From: an uncultured Candidatus Peribacteria bacterium
GTDB lineage: Bacteria; Patescibacteriota; Gracilibacteria; UBA1369
Direction: 5' to 3'
Assembly (NCBI GenBank): GCA_964435355.1
Contig: CAYSYL010000002.1
Span: 1 to 38,680, forward strand
DNA: 38,680 nt
In this document: piece by piece, positions 28,635-38,167 of the stretch
How positions within the stretch are numbered: the first letter of the stretch is position 1
How the letters are laid out: each line of letters opens with the position of its first letter
Program-made: the position numbers and the translations under genes
Notes under the pieces: generated by a model
Databases searched by the model: none
Seen by the model: only the letters and a program-made list of their open reading frames with translations
Told to the model about the DNA's origin: nothing

Positions 28635-28670
28635 CTGGAAGCCAGTATGATTGAATTTTATTTTTTAACA
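28635..28670 (+). repeat. Intergenic element copy Y (divergent, tentative)
   Basis: CTGGAAGC (28635-28642) followed about 17 nt later by ATTTTATTTTT. Same order and orientation as copies B and E, with the central part diverged. Confidence 0.35.
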
Positions 28671-28677
28671 AATTTTT

Positions 28678-29820
28678 ATGAAAAATCTGAAAAGCATTTC
28701 AGGCATTTTATTAGTGGGCTTGTTGTCGATTAATTCAGCTTTCCCTGCACTTGCCGATGTTTTGCCTGAAGGGAAAAAGTATGTCGAAAGTTGCGCTATC
28801 ATGGCCGGAGATTTTCCTAAAATTGCATTGGTGGCAGTCGAAACGGGTCCCACGCTTTCGGAGCCAAATGTTTATGAGTACAAACCTGAAGGAGATGTGT
28901 GTTTAGATGTCGGTTATAAGTTCAATACCCTTACCATTTATGCTTTGGATGTCCAAAATTATAAGGGTAAAAAAAGTGTGGCTGGTTATGATGTCACCAA
29001 GGATCCTTATGCCTATAAGACCAGTATTCCTCTTGATGTGAGTGATAAGCTGGTTGAGATGAATGATCCTACTCAATACTTGCACCGTGAGTATCTTATT
29101 CATGGGGTTGATAATCAAAAGAAACAGTTAGTGATTGCTCTTGCCGCTGAGGTGACGGACCTTATGGTGGCTGATTATCGAAATGCACCTCCTGCCGGTT
29201 TGGATGATCATATTATTATCCCTCAAGAATCAGCTTCTTTCACGGATGTCCCTTTGAACTCTCCTTACTACAATGCCGTGCAATATCTGAAGACGGCGGG
29301 AATTGTCGGCGGTTATCCGGATGGCAGTTTCAAGCCGAATAATCTTATTAATCGGGCTGAATTCACGAAAATCATTGTGGGAGCAACTCGACGTCAGCCT
29401 GATAACGGCCTTTGTCTTGAAACTTTTGCGCAAGCCGATGGAAGTTATACGGACATGTTTACTGACATCTCCTCATCTTCTGGTGCACAAGGGCCGGTCT
29501 GGTATTTAAACGATCTTTGCTATGCCAAAGTAGAGAAACTTATCTCCGGTTATCCTGATGGAAGCTTTAAGCCAGCTAACAATATAAATTTTGTTGAGGC
29601 CGCCAAGATTATTGATAACGGATTTCAATTATATGGTGATGGGGCTGCATCCCCTTGGTATGCCGTTTATGTAAATATCTTGGCTTATCACAAAGCTATA
29701 CCTCAAACCATTAATCGGTTTGATCAACACATCACCCGTGGGGAAATGGCTGAAATGATCTATCGCTTGAAGGCTGAAAAAACTGATTTGCCTTCGAAAA
29801 CTTATAGTGAATTGAAATAA
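28678..29820 (+). CDS. Secreted SLH-domain protein
   Basis: Signal peptide. C-terminal SLH modules: FTDVPLNSPYYNAVQYLKTAGIVGGYPDGSFKPNNLINRAEFTKIIV, then ISGYPDGSFKPANNINFVEAAKII, then ITRGEMAEMIYRL. Confidence 0.8.
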   Translation: MKNLKSISGILLVGLLSINSAFPALADVLPEGKKYVESCAIMAGDFPKIALVAVETGPTLSEPNVYEYKPEGDVCLDVGYKFNTLTIYALDVQNYKGKKSVAGYDVTKDPYAYKTSIPLDVSDKLVEMNDPTQYLHREYLIHGVDNQKKQLVIALAAEVTDLMVADYRNAPPAGLDDHIIIPQESASFTDVPLNSPYYNAVQYLKTAGIVGGYPDGSFKPNNLINRAEFTKIIVGATRRQPDNGLCLETFAQADGSYTDMFTDISSSSGAQGPVWYLNDLCYAKVEKLISGYPDGSFKPANNINFVEAAKIIDNGFQLYGDGAASPWYAVYVNILAYHKAIPQTINRFDQHITRGEMAEMIYRLKAEKTDLPSKTYSELK

Positions 29821-30173
29821 TGGAGTACGAACTACGCTTTTTACTGGCTTTATGCCTTACGGTTATTTCTGAGCTGGCGCTAGCGTTTTCCCTTAAAAGA
29901 GTAATGAAAAAACGGCTGGAGAATCTTACTTCCGGCCGTTTGATGTTGGCGGTTATGTTTGCTTCCTGCTTAACCCTTCCGTATGTTTGGTTCGTGGCGC
30001 CTTTTTTTTTACGGGAAAGGAATGTGTATATGACCCTGAGTGAACTGATTGTTTTTCTCGTAGAGGCGGGGTGGTATAGGTTTTCTCTCTTTGCCATGTG
30101 GAGATATGCTCTTATGTTTTCCTTCTTTTTGAATTTTTTTTCCGTGGTTATCGGGAAAATTTTTATGGGATGA
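29820..30173 (+). CDS. Small integral membrane protein (about 4 TM)
   Basis: 117-aa hydrophobic ORF. Its ATG shares a base with the TAA of the upstream SLH gene (TAATG). Confidence 0.55.
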   Translation: MEYELRFLLALCLTVISELALAFSLKRVMKKRLENLTSGRLMLAVMFASCLTLPYVWFVAPFFLRERNVYMTLSELIVFLVEAGWYRFSLFAMWRYALMFSFFLNFFSVVIGKIFMG

Positions 30174-30270
30174 ATTTTTCCAATGACTTTTGTAGAGGAA
30201 ATATATCAATTTTTACTGCCGGGAATTTCTCTTTGTAATTTCATTCTTTTGGTCGATTTCTATCCCGTAT

Positions 30271-30291
30271 GCCTGAGTCTTTTGTGTTTTG
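30271..30291 (+). repeat. Intergenic element copy Z (3' part only; possible further degenerate part from ~30215)
   Basis: CCTGAGTCTTTTGTGTTTTGG vs copy A CCTGGGTTTATTTTTGTGTTTTGG, with an exact shared 13-mer TTTTGTGTTTTGG. Upstream, CTCTTTGTAATTTC resembles the tail of copy E. Confidence 0.45.
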
Positions 30292-30292
30292 G

Positions 30293-36465: not shown

Positions 36466-36575
36466 TAAAAATCGCTCTAACAATAACCTTTGAGGGTTTG
36501 TAGGGTTTTATGGTTTGGAAGGTTTTGAATTCTGGAAGCACAAACTTTTCTACTTATTTTATTTTTGTAATTTGG
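36466..36575 (+). repeat. Intergenic element copy E (full ~105-nt form; core 36532-36569)
   Basis: TAACCTTTG (36484-36492), GGTTTGGAAGGTTTTGAA (36512-36529), CTGGAAGCACAAACTTTTCTAC, TATTTTATTTTTGT (36555-36568). Same orientation as D. Confidence 0.75.
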
Positions 36576-36586
36576 CTAAAAAAATA

Positions 36587-37105
36587 TTAAGTCCATATGC
36601 GCTGTAGCCGTTTTTGATATTCTGCCAGCGAATCTAAGCCCACTTCCTGACGCCTTGTATCAACATTTTCAGGATCGACAATGGGAAGCGGCACCATTCT
36701 GCCATCACGTCTTTGAAACTGCGTTCCATAAACCTGGGGTCTCCCCTCGCCTACAGCGATACGATCTTCAAGATAAGCAATATCCCTTGCACTAACTTCG
36801 TGCACAGGTTGAACTTTCATAAGTGCTAAACATCTTTTTTGAAACTCAAGATCATGATCAGCATGCTGAACAAGCAACCACGCATTAGAAGCACCTTCTT
36901 CGCCAACTTGAGAAATAGAAGGCCATCCAATTTCATCAATGATTTCCTTTAGTTTGGCTGTATTTTCACGATCAATATTCTCATCCCAATCATCTGGATT
37001 AGTCTGAGCCTTAGTACGCATTTGTTGATCTTTTTGGCACATGAGCCGAAGTTCTTCTCTAAGCCGCATAAACAATTCCGATTTTTCTTGCATTTCTTCA
37101 GTCAT
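36587..37105 (-). CDS. Conserved hypothetical protein (resembles DUF6624-type proteins)
   Basis: Pattern ...KDQQMR...D..N...LKEIIDEIGWPS...VGEEGASNAWLLVQHADHD...YLEDRIAV..GRPQVYGTQF... recalls that family (from memory). The gene looks more GC-rich than its neighbours by eye. Confidence 0.45.
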   Translation of the reverse strand: MTEEMQEKSELFMRLREELRLMCQKDQQMRTKAQTNPDDWDENIDRENTAKLKEIIDEIGWPSISQVGEEGASNAWLLVQHADHDLEFQKRCLALMKVQPVHEVSARDIAYLEDRIAVGEGRPQVYGTQFQRRDGRMVPLPIVDPENVDTRRQEVGLDSLAEYQKRLQRIWT

Positions 37106-37151
37106 TTTCTGGTTTAGTGTAAAAAATGTAGCTAAACTAGCTTCCTGAATA

Positions 37152-37988
37152 TTATCTTATATCTGGATAATCTTTCACTTTTCTATGAAACAGCGCTGCT
37201 CTACTAAGCTCCAACGTCTTTAAGAGGAATCCCCAAAGCCCCATTTTTGCTAACCTTCTATCCGAAACATATACCCCGACATCAGGATTTTTTAAAAAAC
37301 CAATTTTTCCATGTTTTTTAAACTGCCTAAATAAAGGTGGGTGCTCTGCAGCTTTTAAACTTACATCATAGCCAGTCGTTAATTCTCCAACATCTCTTAA
37401 GAAAAAACTATTACCCTCCATACACGTTGTTTCATGGCCAGAGGTAATCATACGAGTAATATCCCAGGCCTCCTGAAGAGCCCTATATCGCCATTTATCG
37501 GAAAGCATATGGAGACGCCCAGTTCCCGCCACTAAATGTGGATTATCAGACATATAATCAGAAATAGATTGAAGCCAAGCTTCTGGATGAATAGCATCAG
37601 CATCAGTAGTAACTACGATTTCACCTTTCGCATTTCGGCGACCTATTTCACGGGCTAAAACGATTCCTTTTTTTGGTTCGTGTATGACATTAAAACCAGA
37701 TGCTTCCGCAATTTGTTGTGTTCGATTGTTATAAGGTTCGCCATTACTTACAATTATAAATTCGCAATCGCGAGCTGTCTGCTGGGCTAATCCCTTAAGT
37801 GTCGCCAAAATATAGAATTCCTCGTTATAGGCTGGGACTACAACACTAAGTCGTGGATGAGTTTTAGAATCAATTTGAGGAATAACAATTGACCGTACCT
37901 CCTGGCATTTATCGGCTAACTGCTCGTCAGTAAAATGACCAACCCCAAACCTTTGAATTTCCAATATTTTATCGGGAGTATTGAACAT
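37152..37988 (-). CDS. Glycosyltransferase family 2 protein
   Basis: LSVVVPAYNEEFYI (N-terminal GT-A motif) and TTDADAI (DxD). 278 aa. Confidence 0.8.
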   Translation of the reverse strand: MFNTPDKILEIQRFGVGHFTDEQLADKCQEVRSIVIPQIDSKTHPRLSVVVPAYNEEFYILATLKGLAQQTARDCEFIIVSNGEPYNNRTQQIAEASGFNVIHEPKKGIVLAREIGRRNAKGEIVVTTDADAIHPEAWLQSISDYMSDNPHLVAGTGRLHMLSDKWRYRALQEAWDITRMITSGHETTCMEGNSFFLRDVGELTTGYDVSLKAAEHPPLFRQFKKHGKIGFLKNPDVGVYVSDRRLAKMGLWGFLLKTLELSRAALFHRKVKDYPDIR

Positions 37989-38059
37989 GCTAATAAAAAG
38001 GTTTTATATATAAACCTTTAAGACACATAAATCAATGGAAATAAGACCAAACGTAATTT

Positions 38060-38167
38060 TTGTAACACTCAAACTTTTACACTTTTAAAATTTGCAACTC
38101 TGGAAGTTTTGAACTTTGGAACTCTGGAGCCACAGACTTTTCTACTTGGTTAATTTTTGTGTTCTGG
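38060..38167 (+). repeat. Intergenic element copy F (core 38124-38167 plus 5' extension with CTGGAAGTTTTGAAC / TTTGGAAC units and a TTTGCAA box)
   Basis: Core CTGGAGCCACAGACTTTTCTACTTGGTTAATTTTTGTGTTCTGG. The upstream TTTTAAAATTTGCAAC also resembles the tails of R1/R2 (TTTGCAAA). Confidence 0.7.

What the first reader, a model, noticed from the sequence alone, without database searches (positions are those of the whole stretch)
28635..38167. Cassette-like array: at least six (possibly eight) same-orientation copies of a conserved intergenic element partition ~9.5 kb of unrelated accessory genes, with no recombinase in view
Seen directly: a conserved element occurs only in intergenic gaps. Its core is CTGGARSYACARAYTTTTYKAC, then 2-4 nt, then T(G/A)KTTTATTTTTGTR. 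Copies lie at A 31688-31731, B 32530-32568, C 33894-33932, D 35749-35789, E 36532-36569 and F 38124-38167. Weaker copies lie at Y 28635-28670 and Z 30271-30291. All are on the + strand regardless of gene orientation, and spacing is 0.8-1.8 kb. The intervals hold functionally unrelated cargo: SLH protein plus small membrane protein; HExxH protein; two frameshifted genes; three immunity-like small genes (one with an in-frame TGA); mazEF; a GC-richer DUF6624-like plus GT2 pair. This combination is what sedentary chromosomal integron/CALIN arrays look like: homogeneous repeats in one orientation, 1-3 genes per interval, an embedded TA module and many decayed genes. However, I could not fold the element into a canonical attC hairpin, and no IntI, transposase or other recombinase is present in the window. 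The element may therefore be a new kind of cassette-delimiting recombination site, or a conserved regulatory or ncRNA element of accessory genes. The array may continue past the right edge.
Basis: partly seen in the sequence, partly recalled or inferred. Interest (0 to 1): 0.85.

Follow-up and report, generated by a model that had tools for sequence, protein, structure and literature searches.

The report
Repeat-bounded gene cassette array in Peregrinibacteria
A conserved ~40-base sequence sits in one orientation between every gene unit of a low-GC accessory island in an uncultured Peregrinibacteria genome. In related strains gene order changes exactly at this sequence, so it marks the joints of swappable gene cassettes, in an integron-like layout but without integron-type hairpin sites or a visible recombinase.

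Summary
The repeat is real. Copies A-F lie at the stated coordinates, all on the + strand (nhmmer E 1e-13 to 1e-18; 6 pattern hits against 0.41 expected). They fill 6 of 6 long intergenic gaps right of 31.6 kb and 0 of 10 to the left. Z is a genuine partial copy holding only the 3' 16 nt. Y is not supported.

The element does not match several known kinds:
- It is not an attC site: no ssDNA or RNA hairpin beyond shuffles and no covariation.
- It has no Rfam match and is not a tRNA remnant.
- It shows no evidence of coding.

No recombinase is encoded in the window, which is an entire 38.7-kb MAG contig.

Cargo is AT-rich and decaying. It includes an orphan homologue of a gene that sits in the immunity position of a T6SS PAAR-effector locus, carrying a Trp-to-stop change, and a mazEF pair.

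The key new evidence comes from contigs of close relatives in six other datasets. They carry the same cassettes and the same element but different neighbours. Sequence collinearity switches at core position ~1 or ~40. A diverged solitary copy next to a toxin-antitoxin pair occurs in another Peregrinibacteria species.

Best reading: a cassette-junction recombination site, analogous to integron/CALIN and Bacteroidales rAID-1 arrays but a member of neither. The recombination mechanism is inferred, not shown.

The parts
30280..30295 (+). Z: partial copy holding only the 3'-terminal 16 nt of the element. It abuts the stop codon of the minus-strand HExxH gene and may be the left-most junction of the array.
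   Evidence: Perfect match to TTTTGTRTTYYGGNTA; 5 hits in the window against 0.12 expected.
30293..31618 (-). Unit Z-A: 441-aa HExxH-type protein of unknown family, 34% GC.
   Evidence: ORF list; no Pfam family; GC.
31671..31734 (+). Copy A (core 31688-31725), the most diverged copy, in a divergent gap.
   Evidence: nhmmer E 2.9e-13; 3 mismatches to the pattern.
31998..32421 (+). Unit A-B: one frameshifted gene split into 76-aa and 74-aa ORFs, with no family match.
32515..32575 (+). Copy B (core 32530-32567), in a tandem (++) gap.
   Evidence: nhmmer E 1.5e-14.
32629..33743 (+). Unit B-C: one frameshifted gene of about 381 aa, with no family match, 31% GC.
33876..33940 (+). Copy C (core 33894-33931), in a convergent gap. 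The stop codon of the minus-strand gene lies at core +46 to +48.
   Evidence: nhmmer E 1.9e-14; sequence.
33939..35530 (-). Unit C-D: three co-oriented genes.
- A 248-aa homologue of a family found in the immunity position after a T6SS PAAR effector, with TGA at 34560-34562 replacing a conserved Trp.
- A DUF4304 gene (34682-35143).
- A 119-aa gene with TGA at 35510-35512 replacing Trp.
35684..35797 (+). Copy D with its upstream extension (core 35749-35786), in a divergent gap.
   Evidence: nhmmer E 2.9e-16; D/E extended homology. Orthologous copies lie in L099 and L100, with identity collapsing after core +40.
35822..36444 (+). Unit D-E: mazE-mazF toxin-antitoxin pair with its own sigma-70-like promoter (TTTACA-17-TATAAT at 35822-35850).
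   Evidence: The same module sits in four other contigs with different neighbours.
36466..36580 (+). Copy E with its upstream extension (core 36532-36569), in a convergent gap.
   Evidence: nhmmer E 5.3e-16.
36587..37988 (-). Unit E-F: DUF6624 gene (36587-37105) and a family-2 glycosyltransferase (37152-37988), with host-like GC of 40-42%.
   Evidence: The glycosyltransferase's nearest homologues lie in core contexts without the element.
38081..38170 (+). Copy F with its upstream tandem TTTGGAAC-like iterations (core 38124-38161), in a divergent gap.
   Evidence: nhmmer E 9e-18.
38221..38680 (+). Start of the next unit: a lipoprotein-like ORF that runs off the contig end.

Best explanation
The element is the junction sequence of a gene-cassette array in a variable, horizontally fed island of a Peregrinibacteria (CPR) chromosome.

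Layout:
- Each unit holds 1-3 co-oriented genes, on either strand.
- Each unit ends on its right in a noncoding tail of about 60-110 nt whose last 40-47 nt are the conserved core.
- The next unit starts within a few bases of the core's 3' end.

Shown: units are found joined to different neighbours in related strains, and sequence collinearity switches at the core.

Inferred: the core is a double-stranded DNA site at which a recombinase encoded elsewhere exchanges, inserts and deletes units. This would resemble integron cassettes or Xer-exploiting elements, which also use an enzyme supplied in trans. The crossover appears to lie inside the ~40-bp core. That would explain hybrid copies and the left-most half-copy Z.

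The cargo is typical of such stockpiles: an orphan copy of a gene family found in the T6SS immunity position, a toxin-antitoxin pair, and in relatives a TetR regulator and a dehydrogenase. In this genome much of it is decaying.
For: Array and repeat:
- Six full copies plus one 3' half-copy, all on the + strand. They fill every long gap of the low-GC segment and no gap elsewhere in the window.

Junction switching between strains:
- (i) D and about 125 nt to its left are 90% identical to L099 and L100, from two independent ENA assemblies. Identity collapses after core +40. A TetR gene follows there instead of mazEF.
- (ii) C's core and the whole immunity cassette to its right are about 95% identical to L099, L100 and L101. 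Identity begins at core +1. The upstream extension there is F-like, and the left neighbour is an unrelated 140-aa gene.
- (iii) The mazEF module occurs in L098, L103 and L104 at 84-91% identity (L098 and L104 91% to each other; 84-89% to the window) with other left neighbours. In L098 and L103 it is followed by a core and then by an SDR gene or a 595-aa gene, not by DUF6624. L104 ends inside mazF.
- The Logan contigs L101 and L103 run straight through the core.

Constraint on the core:
- The L098 and L103 cores are 36/38 identical, while their mazEF DNA is 84% identical.
- A copy about 79% identical survives in another species (L006, AsnS 72% identical), next to a Phd/RelE-type pair.

Foreign, decaying cargo:
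- The 248-aa gene belongs to a family that sits directly after VgrG-DcrB-PAAR in a Pyrinomonadaceae T6SS locus.
- Its TGA and the TGA of the 119-aa gene are both Trp codons in relatives.

Mosaic copies:
- D combines a C/F-type left half with a B/E-type right half. This fits exchange inside the core.
Against: - No recombinase, transposase or nuclease lies in the 38.7-kb window or on the relatives' contigs.
- The core lacks the clear dyad symmetry of tyrosine- or serine-recombinase core sites. The best arms match 5-7 of 10-11 positions.
- It has no stable hairpin.
- No circular cassette or empty site was seen.
- The crossover point cannot be fixed. The E/L098 comparison does not fit a single crossover position.
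- In L098 and L104 the left side of mazEF shows no recognisable core.
- All relatives are short metagenomic contigs.
- The glycosyltransferase unit has host-like GC and CPR-type homologues in core contexts, so not every interval need be a mobile cassette.
Confidence: 0.5

Rival explanations
1. Passive homology patch. The repeat has no dedicated enzyme. It is a portable 40-110 bp stretch of homology at which RecA-dependent recombination or gene conversion swaps neighbouring units, for example after DNA uptake. This would resemble the exchange of 'minimal mobile elements' between conserved flanks.
For: - No recombinase is seen anywhere.
- The mosaic pattern among copies suggests exchanges at more than one position inside the element.
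- Both left-edge and right-edge junctions occur.
Against: - Copies within one genome are only about 66-82% identical over about 60 nt, with the longest identical runs around 22 nt. That is poor substrate for RecA.
- The core is conserved more strongly than adjacent genes and across species. This points to selection on the sequence itself.
- Orientation is uniform in the window.
- The half-copy Z looks like a site-specific hybrid junction.
Confidence: 0.2
2. Regulatory DNA carried by the units. The core would be a binding site for a regulator, silencer or insulator, or a promoter or terminator module, that travels at the end of acquired units. Shuffling would happen by unrelated means.
For: - The sequence is conserved without structure, which fits a protein-binding site.
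- Tandem ~9-nt TTTGGAAS-like iterations upstream of the core in D, E and F look like iterated binding sites.
- B, D and F lie 59-89 nt upstream of + strand genes. In L098 the core's end plus the flank reads as an extended -10 box, TGTTAAAAT.
Against: - Orientation ignores gene direction. C, E, Z, the L006 copy and the L099-L101 'b' copy abut the 3' ends of minus-strand genes and have no + strand gene downstream.
- mazE has its own promoter downstream of D.
- No hairpin plus T-tract is conserved.
- This reading does not explain why collinearity breaks exactly at the core edges.
Confidence: 0.15
3. Small non-autonomous mobile element (MITE or REP-like) that has inserted repeatedly into intergenic gaps of this region.
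For: - It is short, intergenic and multi-copy.
- A solitary copy occurs in another species.
Against: - It has no terminal inverted repeats, no palindromic hairpin and no consistent target-site duplication.
- Copies are clustered rather than dispersed.
- Strain comparisons show the flanks switching at the element. They do not show presence or absence of the element between collinear flanks.
Confidence: 0.08
4. Remnants of a gene's 3' end or of a small ORF. One possibility is attachment-site duplications left by elements that integrate into the end of a protein or tRNA gene. Another is decayed small hydrophobic toxin genes.
For: - One + strand frame reads G[AS]T[DN]F[SL]T[YW][FL]IFV[FIV].
- That frame has the most synonymous differences (22 of 64), no stops, and a stop codon 4-13 codons later.
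- E has an ATG that would give a 26-aa ORF.
Against: - Start codons are not conserved, and a stop lies directly upstream in B.
- An indel puts the D and E upstream homology in different frames.
- Other + frames are also open because the strand is T-rich.
- No NCBIfam match.
- A search of 5.8 billion proteins with the concatenated peptides found nothing at E <= 10.
- No tRNA or tRNA-like match was found, and there is no similarity to the window's tRNA-Pro 3' ends.
- No intact target gene sits at either end of the array.
Confidence: 0.04

Closest known systems
Integron cassette arrays and CALINs (clusters of attC sites lacking an integrase)
   Same: - Same-orientation repeats lie at the 3' end of each 0.7-1.9 kb unit.
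- Cargo is unrelated between units and includes a toxin-antitoxin module and decayed genes.
- Unit order differs between strains, with junctions at the repeat.
- The left-most junction keeps only the 3' part of the site.
- No integrase lies next to the array, as in a CALIN.
- In one relative a group II intron is inserted between a cassette gene and its repeat, the position taken by IIC-attC introns (PMC3001079).
   Different: - The repeat is conserved in sequence and unstructured. attC sites are variable in sequence and defined by a single-stranded hairpin with R''/L''-L'/R' boxes. No such hairpin or covariation exists here.
- Genes lie on both strands, and at least one unit carries its own promoter.
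- The host is a CPR bacterium.
rAID-1 (recombinase-associated acquired interbacterial defence) clusters of Bacteroidales (bioRxiv 10.1101/471110; PMC12247911)
   Same: - The array has lower GC than the host.
- It holds short accessory genes that include orphan homologues of T6SS immunity genes.
- Conserved or repetitive intergenic motifs separate the genes.
- The published description calls the layout 'reminiscent of integrons', with an unproven mechanism.
   Different: [quoted passage not shown] Here no recombinase is seen and orientation is mixed.
- The phylum is different.
- Only one unit here has evidence for an immunity function.
Xer-exploiting elements (IMEX) at dif, and pdif modules of Acinetobacter plasmids [from general knowledge]
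   Same: - Small gene modules, often toxin-antitoxin or resistance genes, are bounded by short recombination sites.
- They carry no recombinase of their own because a host enzyme acts in trans.
- Tandem accumulation occurs at one locus.
   Different: - dif and pdif sites are 28-31 bp with two 11-bp arms in imperfect dyad around a 6-11 bp centre. The core here has only weak outer dyad symmetry.
- pdif sites alternate in orientation.
Tandem accretion of islands at one attachment site, for example SCC elements at the end of rlmH or islands at tRNA genes [from general knowledge]
   Same: - Direct repeats in one orientation separate successive inserts.
- Some inserts lack their own recombinase.
   Different: - Those repeats are copies of the 3' end of an intact target gene at one end of the array. 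No such gene or tRNA is present here.
- The units here are much smaller.

Membership tests
Integron / CALIN | attC sites: imperfect palindromes that fold as single-stranded DNA into a hairpin (R''-L''/L'-R' with extrahelical bases). | tested here: not met
   - ssDNA folds of 111-nt elements on both strands give z-scores of 0.04 to 1.05.
- RNAalifold finds only a weak G-U-rich stem on the + strand and nothing on the - strand.
- Over 12 copies the pairing equals the column-shuffle expectation: 85.9% against 85.0%, with no excess covariation.
Integron / CALIN | R' box GTTRRRY at the cassette boundary and a complementary R'' box RYYYAAC. | tested here: not met
   By inspection of alignments A1, A4 and A7:
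- B, D and E have no GTT at the equivalent place.
- The tail reads GTRTTYYGG.
- An upstream CTAAC box exists in C, D and E only, and it does not pair with the 3' end.
Integron / CALIN | IntI-type tyrosine recombinase with attI next to the array (absent by definition in a CALIN). | tested here: not met
   No Phage_integrase or other recombinase domain was found in any sizeable ORF of the window. The rest of the genome could not be tested.
rAID-1 | XerD-like tyrosine recombinase at the 5' end of the cluster. | tested here: not met
   None in the window. The array runs to the contig end, so a gene beyond the right edge cannot be excluded.
rAID-1 | [quoted passage not shown] | tested here: inconclusive
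   - One unit carries a homologue of a family found in the immunity position after a PAAR effector.
- The other cargo is of unknown function, and PADLOC gives no hit.
- Orientation is mixed: three + units and three - units.
rAID-1 | GC content below that of the host, and conserved intergenic motifs. | tested here: met
   GC is 30-37% against about 41% in the core. A conserved motif lies in every inter-unit gap.
dif / IMEX or pdif modules | A 28-31 bp site with two ~11-bp arms in imperfect dyad around a 6-11 bp central region. | tested here: inconclusive
   The best conserved dyad is CACAAACTTT-N11-TATTTTTGTG, with 5-7 of 10 positions complementary and only in the outer part. There is no Xer gene in the window.
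MITE / REP-type dispersed repeat | Terminal inverted repeats or a palindromic unit, target-site duplication, dispersed copies, and presence/absence polymorphism. | tested here: not met
   - No TIR or hairpin.
- Copies are clustered.
- Strains differ by switched flanks, not by presence or absence of the element.
- Genome-wide dispersion could not be tested.
Known RNA family (Rfam 15) | A match to a covariance model. | tested here: not met
   Only two tRNA-Pro genes reach gathering score in the window. In a relaxed search of 28400-38680 the best match is ar15 at 19.5 bits against a threshold of 40, E = 2.5.
Attachment-site repeats from integration into a tRNA or protein gene's 3' end | The repeat equals the 3' end of an intact target gene at one end of the array. 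| tested here: not met
   - No tRNA lies near the array.
- There is no similarity to the window's tRNA-Pro 3' ends.
- The translated core has no match among 5.8 billion proteins or in NCBIfam.

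The most novel reading that the evidence does not exclude
CPR/Peregrinibacteria may carry a previously undescribed cassette-capture system. It would use a sequence-conserved, unstructured ~40-bp double-stranded site instead of a folded attC, served by a recombinase encoded elsewhere that has not yet been identified. The system would stockpile foreign defence-type genes such as orphan T6SS immunity genes and toxin-antitoxin pairs. 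A group II intron sitting exactly between a cassette gene and its site in one strain hints at a retroelement link like the one proposed for integron cassette genesis.
Probability: 0.35. Interest if true: 0.85.

Novelty: new variant of a known kind. Interest (0 to 1): 0.7.

Why it matters
CPR bacteria have tiny genomes, few recognised mobile elements and no described integron-type systems. The text searches run here found none.

A repeat-bounded, strain-variable cassette array would give them a route to acquire and reshuffle accessory genes. Such an array holding an orphan homologue of a T6SS immunity-position gene and toxin-antitoxin modules would also suggest that interbacterial toxins are a selective pressure on these episymbionts.

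Mechanistically, the site is conserved in sequence and unstructured. If a dedicated enzyme acts on it, this would be a second solution to cassette capture alongside integron attC/IntI, and a relative in spirit of the still uncharacterised rAID-1 arrays. The core sequence gives a direct handle, as an HMM, for finding the arrays and the enzyme in complete genomes.

Tried and rejected
Searches for the element elsewhere:
- An exact-pattern scan of GTDB species representatives found 0 hits.
- Two scans of JGI metagenomes found 0 hits, then 5 chance-level single hits at 9-16 bits against 44-59 bits for true copies.
- Three pattern scans of IMG/VR gave chance hits only.
- BLAST of D against plasmids and phages found nothing meaningful.
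- 80 asnS-anchored loci of relatives share almost no synteny. With the first HMM they held no element copy. The improved HMM recovered one diverged copy, in L006.

Context look-ups:
- Exact-protein look-ups for mazE, mazF, DUF6624 and the alkylation-repair gene found nothing on record.
- The glycosyltransferase's homologues lie in core contexts without the element.

Readings tested and dropped:
- Sigma-54, ECF and Bacteroidetes-type promoter readings were checked by eye. The most conserved bases fall in what would be the spacer.
- Intrinsic terminator: no conserved hairpin before the T-tract.
- attC-like, RNA-hairpin, small-ORF, C-terminal-tail and tRNA-fragment readings were rejected.
- An alternative genetic code as the cause of the in-frame TGAs was rejected. 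The host uses TGA as a stop in topA and the two-component genes, and both TGAs are TGG in relatives.

Cargo annotation that gave little:
- PADLOC, PHROGs and PDB sequence searches gave no usable annotation; the only hit was a marginal PHROG of unknown function for the 441-aa gene.

Full report
**1. Observation**

The repeat is real. A repeat finder, a gapless alignment and a pattern search all recover copies A-F at the coordinates given, all on the + strand. The pattern gives 6 matches against 0.41 expected by chance.

A profile HMM built from the six copies scores them at E 9e-18 to 3e-13. Nothing else in the window scores better than E = 1.5.

Y (28635) is not supported (E = 19). It shares only CTGGAAGC and a T-run.

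Z is a genuine partial copy. Positions 30280-30295 match the element's 3'-terminal 16-nt motif TTTTGTRTTYYGGNTA perfectly. That motif occurs five times in the window (Z, A, C, E, F) against 0.12 expected.

The six full copies occupy all six intergenic gaps of at least 100 nt to the right of position 31,619 and none of the ten such gaps to the left (Fisher p = 1.2e-4). The gap types are three divergent, two convergent and one tandem, so orientation does not follow gene direction.

**2. Anatomy**

The 38-nt core aligns without gaps. A moderately conserved tail, TTYYGGNTA, runs to about +47, where similarity stops abruptly. In C and E the stop codon of a minus-strand gene lies 6 and 17 nt after the core.

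To the left, conservation decays gradually:
- D and E are homologous over about 110 nt.
- C, D and E share a box AAAAAnCGCnCTAAC about 55 nt upstream.
- D, E and F have 3-4 tandem ~9-nt iterations of TTTGGAAS/TTTTGAA leading into the core's CTGGAG.

The copies are mosaic. B and E share one version of positions 1-22, and C, D and F share another. B, D and E share one version of positions 23-29, and A, C and F share another.

**3. What it is not**

- *Hairpin or structured RNA.* Single-stranded DNA folds of 111-nt elements on both strands are no more stable than shuffles (z from 0.04 to 1.05). RNA folds give z from -1.25 to +0.99. RNAalifold finds only a weak, G-U-rich stem on the + strand. With 12 copies from several genomes, that stem's pairing equals the column-shuffle expectation (85.9% against 85.0%), with two isolated compensatory changes.
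- *Known RNA family.* Rfam gives nothing at gathering score beyond the two tRNA-Pro genes. A relaxed search gives only a chance-level hit.
- *Coding sequence.* One + frame looks coding-like: G[AS]T[DN]F[SL]T[YW][FL]IFV, with the most synonymous differences and no stops. However:
  - Start codons are not conserved, and a stop precedes the core directly in B.
  - An indel puts the D and E upstream homology in different frames.
  - Other frames are also open.
  - Neither NCBIfam nor a search of 5.8 billion proteins finds any protein with this sequence.
- *tRNA fragment.* The element does not resemble one.
- *Promoter or terminator.* Consensus scans show nothing consistent at the element. mazE has its own strong sigma-70-like promoter downstream of D.

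**4. Context**

The core genes include topA, asnS, nadE, smpB and a phosphoglucomutase. AsnS is at best 76% identical to a Gracilibacteria, Peregrinibacteria or Peribacteria MAG, which places the window in that part of the CPR.

No recombinase or transposase domain occurs in any sizeable ORF, including the ORF that runs off the left end.

The array segment has 30-37% GC against about 41% elsewhere. TGA is used as a stop by core genes.

**5. Cargo**

| Unit | Content |
|---|---|
| Z-A | 441-aa HExxH protein |
| A-B | one frameshifted gene |
| B-C | one frameshifted gene |
| C-D | three minus-strand genes |
| D-E | mazEF |
| E-F | DUF6624 gene and a GT2 glycosyltransferase |
| after F | lipoprotein-like gene, cut by the contig end |

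The first gene of unit C-D belongs to a 242-aa family (35 hits, 32-52% identity). In a Pyrinomonadaceae contig this family lies directly after ClpV...VgrG-DcrB-PAAR, which is the position of an effector's cognate immunity gene.

In the window that gene carries a TGA where homologues have a nearly invariant Trp. The 119-aa gene of the same unit has a second TGA, which is also Trp in close relatives. The unit is therefore an orphan copy of a probable immunity gene cluster, and it is decaying.

**6. Comparative evidence (the key step)**

The 90%-identity clusters of the cargo proteins contained members from other assemblies. Their contigs could be fetched as L098-L104. They carry element copies scoring 32-53 bits.

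Three kinds of junction are informative:

- **(i) Right edge of D.** L099 and L100, two independent ENA assemblies, match the window from about 125 nt left of D through D's core at about 90%. Identity collapses after core +40. A TetR-family gene follows there instead of mazEF. The TetR gene is fused to the C-terminal third of the 119-aa gene. An inversion with breakpoints inside both genes explains the fusion most simply, and also explains why the two element copies on these contigs are inverted relative to each other.
- **(ii) Left edge of C.** L099, L100 and L101 match the window at about 95% from core +1 of C rightwards through the whole immunity unit. To the left of the core, the extension is F-like and the neighbouring gene is an unrelated 140-aa ORF.
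- **(iii) The mazEF module.**
  - It recurs in L098 (88.7% to the window), L103 (83.7%) and L104 (88.1%).
  - All three have different left neighbours.
  - In L098 it is followed by a core and then an SDR gene. In L103 it is followed by a core and then a 595-aa gene.
  - The L098 and L103 contigs resemble each other only over core positions 1-40 on that side.
  - Their cores are 36/38 identical, although their mazEF DNA is 84% identical.

The Logan contigs L101 and L103 run through the core. I take this as an argument against chimeric joins at the repeat. That inference rests on how such contigs are built, not on a test made here.

With an HMM built from 11 copies, one further diverged copy (about 79% identical, 15.9 bits, E 9e-5 within the locus) appears in L006. 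This is a Peregrinibacteria MAG of another species (AsnS 72% identical). The copy lies between the stop of a zinc-finger gene and a minus-strand Phd/RelE-type toxin-antitoxin pair.

Pattern scans of GTDB representatives, JGI metagenomes and IMG/VR found no other convincing copy. The family appears narrow and sparsely sampled.

**7. Interpretation**

Shown:
- A sequence-conserved ~40-47 bp core marks the boundaries between gene units of a low-GC island.
- Units occur with different neighbours in related genomes, and collinearity switches at the core's edges.
- The core is more conserved than the genes beside it.

Inferred: the core is a recombination site at which units are exchanged by an enzyme encoded elsewhere.

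The crossover probably lies inside the core. The D/L099a pair is about 90% identical through position 22 and then switches to the other variant of positions 23-29. Z keeps only the last 16-20 nt, as a hybrid first junction would. The E/L098 pair does not fit one crossover position, so this remains open.

Rivals, in order of weight:
- Homologous exchange at a portable homology patch (0.2). Its weak points are the low identity between copies within one genome and the evident selection on the core.
- A regulatory site that merely travels with the units (0.15). It does not explain the junction pattern or the indifference to gene direction.
- A MITE-like insertion (0.08). Strains differ by switched flanks, not by presence or absence of the element.
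- Gene-end remnants (0.04).

**8. Comparison with known systems**

The layout works like an integron or CALIN array and like the rAID-1 clusters of Bacteroidales. The latter are described as a tyrosine recombinase plus co-oriented orphan immunity genes, low GC and conserved intergenic motifs 'reminiscent of integrons' (10.1101/471110; PMC12247911).

It is a member of neither family. The attC hairpin test fails, no IntI or XerD-like gene is present, and genes lie on both strands. dif/IMEX and pdif modules share the feature of an enzyme supplied in trans, but the core lacks a dif-type dyad.

One relative adds a parallel. In L103 a complete group II intron lies between mazF and the core:
- Its 5' end, GTGCG, follows a perfect small hairpin.
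- Rfam matches domains D1-D4 at 96 bits and D5-D6 at 60 bits.
- It encodes a 403-aa reverse transcriptase.
- It ends about 10 nt before the core.

Group IIC-attC introns occupy the same position in integron cassettes, between gene and attC, though on the opposite strand (PMC3001079). This is a single case and may simply reflect insertion after a terminator-like hairpin.

**9. Caveats**

- All comparative contigs are short metagenomic pieces of 0.8-8.6 kb from uncultured populations.
- No empty site, circular intermediate or enzyme was seen.
- Genome-wide distribution is untested.
- The E-F unit has host-like GC, and its glycosyltransferase has CPR homologues in core contexts.
- The immunity assignment rests on gene position in one distant T6SS locus.

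Noticed in passing
L103:4719-6605 (Logan SRR21359071 contig): A complete group II intron lies between mazF and the element core. Its 5' end, GTGCG, comes straight after the hairpin AAGGCTTATATAAGCC. It has a D1-D4 match (RF02005, 96 bits), an RVT_1 ORF of 403 aa and a D5-D6 match (RF00029, 60 bits). It ends about 10 nt before the core at 6612. Its size and target look like class C, but the class was not verified.
   Followed up: partly
window 34560-34562 and 35510-35512 (minus strand): Two in-frame TGAs lie in the same unit, in the 248-aa gene (a probable orphan immunity homologue) and in the 119-aa gene. Both are TGG (Trp) in relatives about 95% identical in DNA over this unit. They are nonsense mutations, not a variant genetic code, because the host uses TGA as a stop.
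   Followed up: yes
L006:12569-12611 (Peregrinibacteria MAG PFOM01000020.1): A solitary, diverged copy of the core occurs in another species. It starts 11 nt after the stop of a treble-clef zinc-finger gene, and its 3' end lies about 28 nt before the stop of a minus-strand RelE/ParE-like plus Phd/YefM pair. That pair is inserted among tandem zinc-finger paralogues.
   Followed up: partly
L099:173-808 and L100:1-723: A chimeric ORF joins a TetR-family N-terminus to the last ~54 residues of the 119-aa cargo protein. This implies an inversion or deletion with breakpoints inside genes, and it leaves two element copies in inverted orientation on these contigs.
   Followed up: partly
L093:2888-11121 (JGI metagenome contig SMTZ1_10003665, a chance pattern hit): An unrelated array with similar architecture. 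It has 5-6 same-orientation ~130-nt repeats at about 2-kb spacing between gene units on both strands. The repeats contain a T-arm-like GGTTCAAATCC, yet ARAGORN calls no tRNA.
   Followed up: partly
L019:9659-11158 (Patescibacteria UBA10001) and L017:11295-14450 (Peribacteria): L019 has three copies of a 41-nt repeat just upstream of + strand genes, including a RelE-type toxin-antitoxin pair, directly downstream of asnS. L017 has four tandem ~820-nt units downstream of asnS. Neither repeat is homologous to the element studied here.
   Followed up: no
window 16765-16964: The gap after topA holds a 27-nt inverted repeat (16765-16791 and 16862-16888, 93% complementary) and a 33-nt direct repeat (16799-16831 and 16932-16964, 91%). 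It has no Rfam match.
   Followed up: no
window 6327-6403 and 8976-9052: Two tRNA-Pro genes (anticodons GGG and CGG) in inverted orientation, 83% complementary, bracket about 2.6 kb. That stretch holds a NAGPA-domain gene and a 345-aa ORF.
   Followed up: no
window 1-1900 (minus strand): A long ORF runs off the left contig end. Its sequence contains an HD-type motif (HPLAV...LHDIDED) that suggests a RelA/SpoT-like or other HD-domain hydrolase. It was not checked against Pfam.
   Followed up: no
window 31662-31669: A DnaA-box-like TTATCCAC lies 19 nt left of copy A. It is a single occurrence and probably chance.
   Followed up: no
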